Shown here one piece after another: positions 46,955 through 52,492 of a stretch of 64,000 bases of DNA; positions within the stretch are counted from its first letter, which is position 1; each line of letters starts with the position of its first letter. The DNA is from a virus. The stretch lies in the IMG/VR virus record IMGVR_UViG_3300044633_000521; one strand, 5' to 3'. Below the pieces are notes generated by a model. It had not been told where the DNA came from, searched no databases, and worked only from the letters and a program-made list of their open reading frames with translations. The position numbers and the translations under genes are program-made.

Positions 46955-47033
46955 GGGCCCGAAGCTTAAACCTGGTATAAGCACTCGGCTCATAACCGAA
47001 AGACAGTGAGTTCAAATCTCACCAGGCCCACCA
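46955..47033 (+). tRNA. tRNA with CAT anticodon (Ile2 or elongator Met)
   Basis: Cloverleaf; loop CTCATAA; T-arm GTGAG-TTCAAAT-CTCAC; CCA encoded. Confidence 0.85.
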
Positions 47034-47251: not shown

Positions 47252-47280
47252 TTGACAGGCTAATAAATAGACTGTATAAT
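47252..47280 (+). promoter_or_regulatory. Sigma70-type promoter of the tRNA operon
   Basis: Perfect TTGACA-17 bp-TATAAT with an AT-rich UP region. Confidence 0.9.
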
Positions 47281-48374: not shown

Positions 48375-48442
48375 AATATTACTGCTCAGTAACATTTCTA
48401 GTCAAAACTGACTAAATCAATGAAAATATTACTGCTCAGTAA
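48374..48442. repeat. 19-bp palindromic direct repeat, two copies, 50-bp period
   Basis: AAATATTACTGCTCAGTAA at 48374-92 and 48424-42. Confidence 0.85.
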
Positions 48443-48451
48443 GATTATAAT

Positions 48452-48525
48452 GCGGGTATGATGTAATGGTAACCTACGACTTTGCCAAAGTTGAATTGCG
48501 AGTTCAATTCTCGCTACCCGCTCCA
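48452..48525 (+). tRNA. tRNA-Gly(GCC)
   Basis: GCGGGTA/TACCCGC acceptor, loop TTGCCAA, U73, CCA. Confidence 0.93.
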
Positions 48526-48531
48526 GTTTAC

Positions 48532-48609
48532 GTTGCTTTGCTGGTTCGAGTCCAGCTTGTAGGTCAAGCGAAATAGCAGCCTACGGTAGTTTAATGGTAA
48601 AACAGCAAC
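48532..48609 (+). ncRNA. Circularly permuted tRNA-like RNA (YrlA/Y-RNA-like topology)
   Basis: Order: GTTGC, T-arm (GCTGG-TTCGAGT-CCAGC), acceptor hairpin TTGTAGG...CCTACGG, D-arm (GTTT-AATGGTA-AAAC), GCAAC. Confidence 0.75.
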
Positions 48610-48615
48610 CTCTAT

Positions 48616-48690
48616 GGTGTCTATAGTGTAGTGGTAACACTCAGGATTGTGATTCCTGCATCACGGGTTCGAACCCCGTTAGACACCCCA
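48616..48690 (+). tRNA. tRNA-His(GTG)
   Basis: G-1 and C73, CAGGA-TTGTGAT-TCCTG, CCA. Confidence 0.95.
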
Positions 48691-48691
48691 T

Positions 48692-48720
48692 TTGACAAGT
48701 CAACTAAATGACTGTATAAT
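48692..48720 (+). promoter_or_regulatory. Sigma70-type promoter (leaderless transcript)
   Basis: TTGACA-17 bp-TATAAT; ATG 6 nt downstream. Confidence 0.85.
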
Positions 48721-50007: not shown

Positions 50008-50205
50008 ACTAGGGTTACACTTTTACTTTATGAAAGTGGGTCATTGCCAATACCATAACGGCACAGTGCATACGTTCTACTGCAAGGCTCCATTTCCGAG
50101 CGACTTGAGAAATACGTAGGGGTTTTATTGTTTCGTACCAGATGGAAACAGTCGGACAGGGTAACTACTCAGTTTAGGGCCAGGTAGTGCTGGTAGCTAG
50201 ACACC
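50008..50205 (+). ncRNA. Unassigned ~200-nt multi-stem RNA between tRNAs
   Basis: GC-richer non-coding spacer with several hairpins and long-range GGTTAC/GTAACT and TGAG/CTCA pairings. Confidence 0.5.
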
Positions 50206-52262: not shown

Positions 52263-52292
52263 TTGACGATAGTCGCGATGGCATGCTATAAT
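52263..52292 (+). promoter_or_regulatory. Sigma70-type promoter (extended -10)
   Basis: TTGACG-18 bp-TATAAT, with TGc immediately before the -10. Confidence 0.7.
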
Positions 52293-52322
52293 AGTTTTAT
52301 TAGTTTTAAAATTTGGAAGAAA

Positions 52323-52483
52323 GCCGGTACATTATGTATTCGAGGTTAGGAGAGACCGGCAAACCGTCCATATAAAGACCAGACCTCAATCTCGTAAGAG
52401 ACAATTCTGGTTCCGCTGACGCGAAAAGAGGATGGGCTGCGCTCACGGGGTTTGTTAGGTTCCTGACACAAAAATACCTAACA
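52323..52483 (+). ncRNA. Unassigned ~160-nt structured RNA upstream of tRNA-Ser
   Basis: GCCGGT/ACCGGC, AAACCGT/ACGGGGTTT, ACCAGA/TCTGGT, TCTC-GTAA-GAGA, CGC-TGAC-GCG, TGTTAGGT/ACCTAACA. Confidence 0.6.
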
Positions 52484-52492
52484 CTTGATTTC

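What the first reader, a model, noticed from the sequence alone, without database searches (positions are those of the whole stretch)
48526..48615. Circularly permuted tRNA-like RNA opened at the anticodon loop
Between tRNA-Gly and tRNA-His the tRNA arms occur in permuted order: anticodon-stem 3' strand GTTGC (48532-36), a perfect T-arm (48540-56), acceptor 3' strand TTGTAGG, a 16-nt linker with no CCA, acceptor 5' strand CCTACGG (48580-86), the D-arm, then GCAAC (48605-09) closing the anticodon stem. This is the topology of bacterial YrlA Y RNAs and of permuted tRNA genes in red algae and archaea. Here the closing stem is only 5-6 bp and no Ro/Rsr gene is in the window. Processing of the flanking tRNAs would release it automatically. 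Inference: a tRNA-shaped molecule with no anticodon loop could act as a decoy for anticodon nucleases or tRNA-sensing defences. Alternatively, ligating the flanks (CTCTA + AC) could build a 7-nt loop with a CTA (amber) anticodon, which is speculative.
Basis: partly seen in the sequence, partly recalled or inferred. Interest (0 to 1): 0.85.

Follow-up and report, generated by a model that had tools for sequence, protein, structure and literature searches.

The report
Back-to-front tRNA look-alike in phage
Among the tRNA genes of an uncultured giant lake phage sits a small RNA gene shaped like a tRNA turned inside out, with a sealed acceptor end and no anticodon loop; selection has kept this fold in four related phage lineages, so it is a real non-decoding tRNA mimic whose job is still unknown.

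Summary
Window 48532-48609 holds, in permuted order, a 5-bp closing stem, a canonical T arm, a 7-8-bp acceptor stem capped by a 14-nt loop, and a canonical D arm. The re-permuted sequence is called a tRNA by ARAGORN.

It is not a relic. I found homologues in four lineages of ~330-350-kb uncultured lake jumbo myoviruses. There is one copy per record, always inside the tRNA array, in six different tRNA neighbourhoods. Of the base-pair cells, 98.8% pair, and 7 pairs carry compensatory changes (0/500 shuffles reach this).

It is not a YrlA member. It scores 21.7 bits against a cut-off of 69, the same as ordinary tRNA-tRNA junctions. It has no long stem. No TROVE, DUF2828 or RtcB gene appears in a complete 329-kb relative.

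It is not a permuted tRNA gene. The tails that would form an anticodon loop are not conserved, there is no BHB motif, no ligase or splicing endonuclease was found, and TAG is an ordinary stop codon here.

Best reading: a Ro-independent minimal tRNA mimic, released by processing of the flanking tRNAs and possibly cut by RNase P into two paired pieces. A decoy role is untested.

Earlier notes from this scan report permuted tRNA mimics on other DNA, but those sit on a "CAGCAA handle" or beside DUF7873; neither arrangement is present here.

The parts
48526..48531 (+). 5' tail GUUUAC, directly after the encoded CCA of tRNA-Gly(gcc). It is AU-rich and its sequence is not conserved between lineages.
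   Evidence: tails differ in all four lineages
48532..48536 (+). Closing stem, 5' strand GUUGC (equivalent to tRNA positions 39-43). It pairs with 48605-48609.
   Evidence: 5 pairs; the innermost covaries C-G / U-A / U.G
48537..48539 (+). 3-nt variable region UUU.
48540..48556 (+). T arm GCUGG-UUCGAGU-CCAGC.
   Evidence: two of its five pairs carry compensatory changes; loop residues U54 U55 C56 A58 are invariant
48557..48564 (+). Acceptor 3' strand UUGUAGG plus U48564, which closes the stem as G.U with G48579.
   Evidence: four pairs covary; one whole base pair is deleted in the other lineages
48565..48578 (+). 14-nt loop CAAGCGAAAUAGCA sealing the acceptor end. The stem-proximal U-CAAG and CAG-stem are conserved in all lineages. 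The loop interior varies in sequence and length.
48579..48586 (+). G48579 plus acceptor 5' strand CCUACGG.
48587..48604 (+). U8 A9, D arm GUUU-AAUGGUA-AAAC, and A26.
   Evidence: D stem invariant; A14, G18, G19 and A21 kept in all lineages
48605..48609 (+). Closing stem, 3' strand GCAAC (equivalent to tRNA positions 27-31).
48610..48615 (+). 3' tail CUCUAU. G48616 is the G-1 of tRNA-His, so RNase P cleavage of tRNA-His would set the element's 3' end here.
48452..48525 (+). Upstream neighbour tRNA-Gly(gcc) with encoded CCA. In relatives L088 and L098 it abuts tRNA-His with only AT between them, so 48526-48613 is an 88-nt insertion/deletion unit.
48616..48690 (+). Downstream neighbour tRNA-His(gtg), including G-1.
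47252..47280 (+). Consensus sigma-70-type promoter (12/12) of the tRNA operon that contains the element.

Best explanation
The element is a gene for a small non-decoding RNA that folds into the L-shaped body of a tRNA, but with the chain circularly permuted. It starts and ends at a 5-bp stem that stands where the anticodon stem would be. The acceptor stem is sealed by a loop, and there is no anticodon loop.

It is co-transcribed with the phage's tRNAs. It would be freed from the precursor by the enzymes that mature its neighbours: 3' processing of tRNA-Gly sets its 5' end, and RNase P cleavage at tRNA-His sets its 3' end (inferred).

Shown here: selection has maintained the four helices and the nucleotides that make the tRNA tertiary contacts in four phage lineages. 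The element moves through the tRNA arrays as a cassette, like a tRNA gene.

Inferred: it acts through proteins or ribozymes that recognise the tRNA body (elbow plus acceptor/T minihelix) and not through decoding.

I rate it about even that RNase P also cuts in the acceptor loop in front of the 7-bp stem. This happens with Mycobacterium smegmatis YrlA and with two-piece tmRNA precursors. It would give two base-paired pieces, possibly with CCA added by the host.

It works without a phage-encoded Ro60-type partner. What it does for the phage is not known. Candidates are titrating or blocking a tRNA-binding host factor such as a tRNA-targeting defence enzyme, or modulating tRNA processing.
For: Anatomy and fold.

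- Lineage B: L085 (in a complete 329-kb genome), L156, L165.
- Lineage C: L200, L288, L289/L290.
- Lineage D: L182/L183.

Covariation:
- 98.8% of cells pair and 7 pairs change on both sides; 0/500 shuffles reach this, and slid controls give 0-1.
- RNAalifold predicts the same four helices de novo.
- Window versus L156: 13 substitutions, 8 of them in stems, none breaking a pair, 3 double changes. Joint P is about 1e-5 under random placement.
- One whole acceptor base pair is deleted on both strands in the other lineages.

Cassette behaviour: six contexts, namely Gly|His, Tyr|Lys, Ile|Lys, Glu|Pro, Thr|Pro and Gly|Gln. There is a clean 88-nt presence/absence against L088 and L098.

One operon, no internal terminator.

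Precedents for loop cleavage:
- M. smegmatis YrlA has a 7-bp acceptor stem, is cut by M1 RNA and receives CCA in vivo (PMC4201824).
- A lineage-D relative carries a permuted betaproteobacterial-type tmRNA gene. By my own knowledge of two-piece tmRNA maturation, this implies that the hosts mature such topologies.

No Ro-type partner.
Against: - No expression or end-mapping data exist.
- Only four lineages are known, all in one phage group, so covariation rests on few independent events.
- The element is absent from most related records, so it is dispensable.
- Its identity between lineages (78%) is lower than that of neighbouring true tRNAs (about 90%).
- The loop interior is not conserved across lineages, so no functional site can be named.
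- No partner protein or base-pairing target was found.
- The host may encode Ro60; this could not be tested.
Confidence: 0.72

Rival explanations
1. Decaying relic. The element is the 3' half and the 5' half left over from two tandem copies of one tRNA gene after deletions or recombination in a highly mosaic tRNA array, with no function of its own.
For: - The linker reads U-CAA-G, one base from the encoded CCA of neighbouring tRNAs. This fits an origin from a tRNA 3' end plus spacer.
- The arrays are strongly mosaic.
- The element is missing from most relatives.
- The energy z-score is only -1.7.
Against: - The same permuted unit is kept in four lineages and six neighbourhoods.
- It has 7 compensated pairs. 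Only 2 of 161 cells are unpaired (the L085 C.A, and one artefact of the bulged A in L182), and a coordinated base-pair deletion preserves the stem.
- All tertiary-contact nucleotides are invariant.
- No close parent tRNA appears among about 1200 distinct phage tRNAs.
- A tandem-duplication origin is compatible with function; it is also the accepted origin of permuted tRNA genes.
Confidence: 0.1
2. Diverged Y RNA. It is a YrlA-type RNA that works with a Ro60/Rsr ring protein supplied by the host, or by a phage protein too diverged to be seen, tethering it to an exonuclease or RNA-repair machinery.
For: - The topology is the same as the YrlA tRNA-like domain (Rfam alignment to model positions 29-81).
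- Other phages carry full YrlA-like RNAs in their tRNA arrays right behind a TROVE gene (G050 and G049).
- Some jumbo phages are known to carry TROVE proteins (PMC7824862).
Against: - It scores 21.7 bits against a gathering score of 69, equal to ordinary tRNA junctions.
- The closing stem is only 5 bp, with unconserved tails.
- There is no GNCGAAN0-1G motif near the 5' end (PMC4201824).
- No TROVE, DUF2828 or phage-type Ro60-like ORF is found in G000 or in the complete G009. The DUF2828 and protein searches had no positive control, so they are weaker negatives.
Confidence: 0.1
3. True permuted tRNA gene. The ends are joined across the closing stem to make an anticodon loop, and the acceptor loop is removed by RNase P and 3' trimming, giving a functional, perhaps suppressor, tRNA.
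For: - The re-permuted sequence scores as a tRNA.
- After RNase P and RNase E cleavage the ends would be 3'-OH and 5'-phosphate held together by a stem, which suits an Rnl-type ligase (inference).
- In this window the tails could give CU-CUA-AC.
Against: - The tails are unconserved in sequence and length in the four lineages. There is no conserved U33 or anticodon.
- In lineage B no tRNA follows directly to set the 3' end.
- There is no leader-trailer pairing or BHB motif, which defines permuted tRNA genes (PMC4090602).
- No RtcB, PF09414 RNA ligase or tRNA splicing endonuclease is found in G000 or the complete G009. The Rnl1 search had no positive control.
- The genome uses the standard code, with TAG as the stop of 21/88 long ORFs.
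- The variable region is only 3 nt.
Confidence: 0.03

Closest known systems
YrlA, the tRNA-like Y RNA of bacteria and mycobacteriophages bound by Ro60/Rsr (Rfam RF02553; Chen et al. 2014, PMC4201824), especially M. smegmatis YrlA
   Same: - The order of parts is T arm, acceptor-like stem closed by a loop, then D arm, with the chain ends where the anticodon stem would be.
- The tRNA tertiary-contact nucleotides are kept.
[quoted passage not shown]
   Different: - There is no long terminal stem and no GNCGAAN0-1G motif.
- It is about 85-90 nt instead of about 110-130.
- It is not next to a Ro60 gene, and none was detected in a complete relative.
- The Rfam score is far below the cut-off and equal to that of ordinary tRNA junctions.
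Permuted tRNA genes of Cyanidioschyzon merolae, other algae and some archaea (Soma et al. 2007; reviewed in PMC4090602)
   Same: The 3' half lies upstream of the 5' half, with the normal termini bridged by a short loop. The likely origin is tandem duplication.
   Different: - Those genes keep the anticodon loop.
- Their leader and trailer pair into a BHB motif.
- They mature through a circular intermediate made by splicing endonuclease and ligase.
- None of these features is present here, and the tails are not conserved.
Two-piece (circularly permuted) tmRNA of alpha- and betaproteobacteria and cyanobacteria (Rfam RF01850, RF04321)
   Same: - The tRNA-like domain is encoded as T arm, acceptor 3' strand, linker, acceptor 5' strand.
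- Maturation cuts out the linker and leaves two base-paired pieces (my own knowledge of the family).
- A lineage-D relative of this phage carries such a gene.
   Different: - tmRNA has a tag reading frame, pseudoknots and an alanine-identity G3.U70 pair, and it lacks a D stem.
- The element has none of the first three and does have a full D arm.
- Neither tmRNA model matched it.
Phage small RNAs with a 'CAGCAA handle' beside Ro60-like/DUF2828 genes, and DUF7873-linked tRNA-mimic RNAs
   Same: They are phage tRNA-array RNAs that display permuted tRNA modules without decoding.
   Different: - The handle is: 5' stem strand, then ACAGCAA, then cargo, then 3' strand (example L034:81-137).
- Here ACAGCAA (48602-08) is at the 3' side, is partly base-paired, and reads ACAACAA or CUACAAC in other lineages.
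- No RF01414-like RNA is found in G000 or G009.
- No protein gene precedes the element in any lineage.
Phage T4 stable RNAs species 1 and 2 (rnaC, rnaD) in the T4 tRNA cluster (my own knowledge)
   Same: They are small stable RNAs of unknown function, co-transcribed with and processed out of a phage tRNA operon.
   Different: As far as I know they are not permuted tRNAs. No sequence relation was tested.

Membership tests
YrlA (RF02553) | Reaches the Rfam gathering score (69 bits) with a full-length match | tested here: not met
   21.7 bits, model positions 29-81 only. Ordinary tRNA-tRNA junctions in the same genome score 21.1 and 19.9 bits. 13 of 14 control genomes give hits at E<=1 and none reaches the cut-off.
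YrlA (RF02553) | Encoded within about 4 kb of a Ro60/Rsr (TROVE) gene on the same strand | tested here: not met
   No PF05731 hit in G000 or in the complete 329-kb G009. No hit to two phage TROVE-like proteins. Positive control: G050 has a TROVE ORF followed by four YrlA-like RNAs.
YrlA (RF02553) | Long terminal stem and GNCGAAN0-1G motif near the 5' end (the proposed Rsr-binding site) | tested here: not met
   The closing stem is 5 bp and the tails are unconserved. Only a GCGAA core occurs, in the acceptor loop of lineages A and B, and it is absent in C and D.
YrlA (RF02553) | tRNA-like domain: T arm, closed acceptor-like stem, D arm, tertiary-contact nucleotides | tested here: met
Permuted tRNA genes (algal/archaeal type) | 3' half upstream of the 5' half, with the termini bridged by a short loop | tested here: met
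Permuted tRNA genes (algal/archaeal type) | Conserved anticodon-loop nucleotides on the new termini, and leader-trailer pairing into a BHB motif | tested here: not met
   The tails differ in every lineage and do not pair. The criteria are taken from PMC4090602.
Permuted tRNA genes (algal/archaeal type) | Splicing endonuclease and ligase available for a circular intermediate | tested here: not met
   No PF01974, PF01139 or PF09414 hit in G000 or G009, with working controls. The PF09511 search was inconclusive because nothing rang in the controls. Host enzymes were not testable.
Permuted tRNA genes (algal/archaeal type) | Mature continuous tRNA detected | not testable with these tools
Two-piece tmRNA | Match to a tmRNA covariance model; tag reading frame | tested here: not met
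   No tmRNA-family hit at E<=10 on 48440-48700. ARAGORN with its tmRNA search finds none in G000. The element is flanked directly by tRNAs.
'CAGCAA handle' phage RNAs (scan-internal family; RF01414 as proxy) | 5' stem strand followed by unpaired (A)CAGCAA, then cargo, then 3' stem strand | tested here: not met
   The motif is at the 3' side, is paired, and is not conserved. RF01414 best hit in G000 is 14.6 bits elsewhere; there is none in G009.
DUF7873-linked tRNA-mimic RNAs (scan-internal family) | RNA lies directly downstream of a ~250-aa DUF7873 gene | tested here: not met
   In all six contexts the upstream neighbour is a tRNA (lineage D: a terminator-like hairpin after tRNA-Gly; L156/L165: a ~100-nt structured RNA), never a protein gene. 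Presence of DUF7873 elsewhere in the genome was not tested because the accession was not known to me.

The most novel reading that the evidence does not exclude
The element is a self-sufficient, Ro-independent tRNA decoy. It is a minimal permuted tRNA body, possibly nicked by RNase P into two paired pieces and capped with CCA, that jumbo phages carry in their tRNA arrays. Its role would be to occupy or mislead a host factor that recognises the tRNA elbow and acceptor/T minihelix, for example a tRNA-cleaving or tRNA-modifying defence enzyme, while being immune to anticodon nucleases because it has no anticodon loop.

An even bolder reading is the first permuted tRNA gene matured by end-joining in a bacterial virus. 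I rate that at about 3%.
Probability: 0.2. Interest if true: 0.8.

Novelty: new variant of a known kind. Interest (0 to 1): 0.6.

Why it matters
tRNA mimics with this inside-out topology are so far tied to Ro60-type partners (YrlA). This family shows that the bare tRNA body, without any Ro-binding module and without a detectable Ro gene in a complete genome, is kept by selection and shuffled through phage tRNA arrays like a tRNA gene.

That points to a function resting on recognition of the tRNA shape alone: processing enzymes, modification enzymes or tRNA-directed defences. It also gives a small, well-defined RNA of about 85 nt for testing how phages interfere with tRNA biology.

It is a caution for annotation too. 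tRNA finders miss it, and the Rfam YrlA model cannot tell it from ordinary tRNA junctions.

Tried and rejected
1. Rfam YrlA as evidence. The sub-threshold hit looked supportive until the control showed equal scores at normal tRNA junctions.

2. An invariant 14-nt loop as the functional site. It is identical in lineages A and B (P about 0.03), but lineages C and D have a different interior and a 23-nt longer loop. Only U-CAAG and CAG next to the stem are conserved.

3. A base-pairing target for the loop in the 99.6-kb record. Only chance-level 11-12-mers with one mismatch were found.

4. A parent tRNA. The best matches are only shared D-arm sequence with long-arm tRNA-Ile(tat)-like and tRNA-Gly(tcc) genes.

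5. The 'CAGCAA handle' lead from earlier notes. The geometry is wrong and the motif is not conserved.

6. Sibling RNAs with the same GUUGY/RCAAC closing stem in the window. There were 13 matches against 11.7 expected. One such RNA does exist upstream of the element in L156/L165.

7. TAG recoding. Rejected.

8. Homologues in other collections. There is no near relative in INPHARED. PA5oct and RaK2 are negative. Five pattern hits in GTDB genomes were not confirmed by the model. Fifteen of 18 metagenome pattern hits were chance.

10. A phage CCA-adding enzyme. None was found.

Full report
**Setting.**
The window is part of a 99.6-kb IMG/VR virus record (G000). CheckV rates it 29% complete, so the genome is about 340 kb. 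It encodes T4-type terminase, tail sheath and gp15-like proteins. A virion protein is about 32% identical to those of PA5oct-like phages and about 26% identical to RaK2's. It is therefore an uncultured jumbo myovirus.

The genome uses the standard code. ORFs of 120 aa or more cover 86% of it, and TAG ends 21 of 88 of them.

The finding lies in a tRNA operon. A 12/12 sigma-70-type promoter sits at 47252-80, no terminator-like site is found, and the next consensus promoter is at 48692. ARAGORN and Rfam find tRNA-Gly(gcc) at 48452-48525 and tRNA-His at 48617-48690, and nothing in the 91 bases between them.

**Observation.**
The sequence reads: GUUUAC / GUUGC / UUU / GCUGG-UUCGAGU-CCAGC / UUGUAGG-U / CAAGCGAAAUAGCA / G-CCUACGG / UA / GUUU-AAUGGUA-AAAC / A / GCAAC / CUCUAU. 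Then comes G48616, which is the G-1 of tRNA-His.

- The MFE fold of the 91 nt is exactly the four-helix junction (-24.8 kcal/mol). Its z-score of -1.7 means energy alone proves little.
- After re-permutation ARAGORN calls a 73-nt cloverleaf with a 3-nt variable region.
- Among 70 IMG/VR places with the same T loop followed by the same D arm, almost all are ordinary adjacent tRNAs whose acceptor strands do not pair. The double complementarity here (7/7 and 5/5) is not what tRNA junctions give by chance.

**Homologues.**
Seventy-one related loci were fetched through the neighbouring 156-aa protein. They show that the tRNA arrays of this phage group are strongly mosaic. In L088 and L098, tRNA-Gly(gcc) and tRNA-His are separated only by AT, so 48526-48613 is a clean 88-nt presence/absence unit.

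A first homologue (78% identical) lies behind tRNA-Tyr in L085. That record is a complete 329-kb genome with terminal repeats, G009. Pattern scans plus two covariance models (R1, R2) then gave four lineages:

| Lineage | Members |
|---|---|
| A | the window |
| B | L085, L156, L165 |
| C | L200, L288, L289/L290 |
| D | L182/L183 |

All sit in records whose CheckV values imply genomes of about 330-365 kb. There is one copy per record, always inside the tRNA array. The neighbourhoods differ: Gly|His, Tyr|Lys, Ile|Lys, Glu|Pro, Thr|Pro and Gly|Gln. The element was not found in 44 of 48 related records (many are fragments), in PA5oct or RaK2, or in a pattern scan of GTDB genomes.

**Is the structure selected?**
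On the eight distinct sequences, 98.8% of base-pair cells form standard pairs and 7 of 21 pairs change on both sides. None of 500 column shuffles reaches these values, and sliding the partners gives 0-1 such pairs. RNAalifold predicts the same four helices without being told.

For the window against L156 alone:
- There are 13 substitutions in the 79-column core.
- Eight fall in stems. None breaks a pair, and three pairs are doubly changed.
- Random placement gives P about 8e-4 for no broken pair, about 7e-4 for three or more double changes, and about 1e-5 jointly.
- In addition, one whole acceptor base pair is missing on both strands in lineages B-D.

U8, A14, G18, G19, A21, U54, U55, C56, A58 and the D stem are invariant. 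This is the signature of purifying selection on a tRNA-like three-dimensional fold. It argues against a decaying relic, although an origin from tandem tRNA copies is likely: the linker starts U-CAA-G, one base from CCA.

**What is conserved and what is not.**
- The closing stem is always GUUG(C/U)/(G/A)CAAC, with one U.G intermediate.
- The acceptor stem ends in a G.U pair, flanked by CA on the 5' side and CAAG on the 3' side, in all lineages.
- The loop interior differs: CGAAAUA in A and B, ACUAAGAAU in C, and a 29-nt hairpin-containing insert in D.
- The single-stranded tails outside the closing stem share no sequence or length.

**Tests of the named interpretations.**

*YrlA.* The Rfam model matches only its tRNA-like core at 21.7 bits (cut-off 69). 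Ordinary tRNA junctions in the same genome score 21.1 and 19.9 bits, and 13 of 14 unrelated control genomes give hits at E<=1, so this hit carries no weight.

Real phage Y-RNA loci look different. In G050 a TROVE ORF is followed within 1.5 kb by four YrlA-like RNAs with long closing stems. L040 has a 55.7-bit full-length match, and the same 17.9-kb contig carries a weak TROVE-like ORF (21 bits, just under the 23-bit cut-off).

G000 and the complete G009 have no TROVE, no RtcB and no DUF2828 hit, and no match to two phage TROVE-like proteins. The defining features listed by Chen et al. (PMC4201824) are not met, apart from the tRNA-like domain itself. Those features are Ro60 adjacency, the 5' GNCGAAN0-1G motif and the long stem.

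*Permuted tRNA gene / amber tRNA.* By the criteria in PMC4090602, such genes keep anticodon-loop nucleotides and have a BHB-forming leader and trailer. Here the tails are unconserved. No splicing endonuclease, RtcB or PF09414 ligase is found, although the Rnl1 search lacked a positive control. TAG is a normal stop codon.

*Leads from earlier notes of this scan.* The 'CAGCAA handle' has another geometry. It is not conserved here and has no RF01414-like member in G000 or G009. The DUF7873 arrangement, a protein gene directly upstream, is not present in any lineage.

**Mechanism.**

*Shown:*
- A selected, permuted, tRNA-shaped RNA gene inside a tRNA operon.
- It is mobile as a cassette.
- It has no detectable phage Ro-type partner.

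*Inferred:*
- It is released by maturation of the flanking tRNAs.
- It is recognised by factors that read the tRNA elbow and the 12-bp acceptor/T minihelix.

*Possible (about even odds):* RNase P cleavage in front of the acceptor 5' strand, followed by 3' trimming and CCA addition. Two precedents support this. M. smegmatis YrlA is cleaved by M1 RNA and receives CCA in vivo, which its authors link to its 7-bp acceptor stem. A lineage-D relative carries a permuted betaproteobacterial-type tmRNA gene, a kind of RNA whose precursor is matured into two pieces in such hosts (my own knowledge). The conserved CA|G...U|CAAG next to the stem, with a free loop interior, would fit processing signals as well as a binding site.

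*Untested:* the decoy role. No base-pairing target for the loop was found.

**Limits.**
Only four lineages are known, all in one phage group, and host genes were not testable.

**Verdict.**
- The element is a functional-looking, non-decoding tRNA mimic of YrlA-like topology that is neither a YrlA member nor a permuted tRNA gene.
- I rate it a new variant of a known kind, of moderate to high interest.
- Its biological role remains open.

Noticed in passing
L182:5651-6042 (- strand); same as L183:8165-8550: A related jumbo phage (lineage D) carries a circularly permuted, betaproteobacterial-type tmRNA gene (RF01850 105 bits, RF04321 127 bits; tag AKTSTFEYFKVDFDISAMNDEADFALAA). This hints at a betaproteobacterial host and at phage-borne trans-translation.
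   Followed up: partly
L085:3245-3356; L156:981-1086; L200:2402-2356 (- strand): In lineage B and in L200 of lineage C the element is followed by a Shine-Dalgarno sequence and a 6-12-codon mini-ORF with two Lys codons. In B a hairpin of about 20 bp follows. Then comes tRNA-Lys(ttt). This could be a lysine-sensing leader for the phage tRNA-Lys.
   Followed up: no
L156:790-887 and L165:570-473 (- strand): A four-hairpin RNA of about 100 nt sits directly upstream of the element. It is closed by UUUGUUGC/GCAACAAA, the same closing-stem sequence as the element (MFE -26.5, z -2.5). No homologue was found in the window or in the other loci.
   Followed up: partly
window 46955-47030: Rfam calls a tRNA here (53.5 bits) that ARAGORN misses.
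   Followed up: no
window 48376-48393 and 48425-48442: An 18-nt direct repeat AATATTACTGCTCAGTAA lies in the spacer between tRNA-Arg(tcg) and tRNA-Gly(gcc).
   Followed up: no
many loci, e.g. L200:1725-1816, L182:885-979: Genes of 90-94 nt called tRNA-Ile(tat), with a long variable arm, are common in these phage arrays. That is an unusual build for an isoleucine tRNA.
   Followed up: no
G050:206535-209651 (L152, L171, L174, L177): A 224-kb phage has a TROVE/Ro60-like ORF followed on the same strand by four sub-threshold YrlA-like RNAs interspersed with tRNAs. It is a clear phage Ro/Y-RNA locus, used here as a positive control.
   Followed up: partly
window 50008-50205 and 52263-52484: Two further GC-richer, ORF-free stretches between tRNAs. 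The first is conserved at 72-92% identity in many relatives. They are probably additional unknown RNAs processed out of the tRNA transcripts.
   Followed up: no
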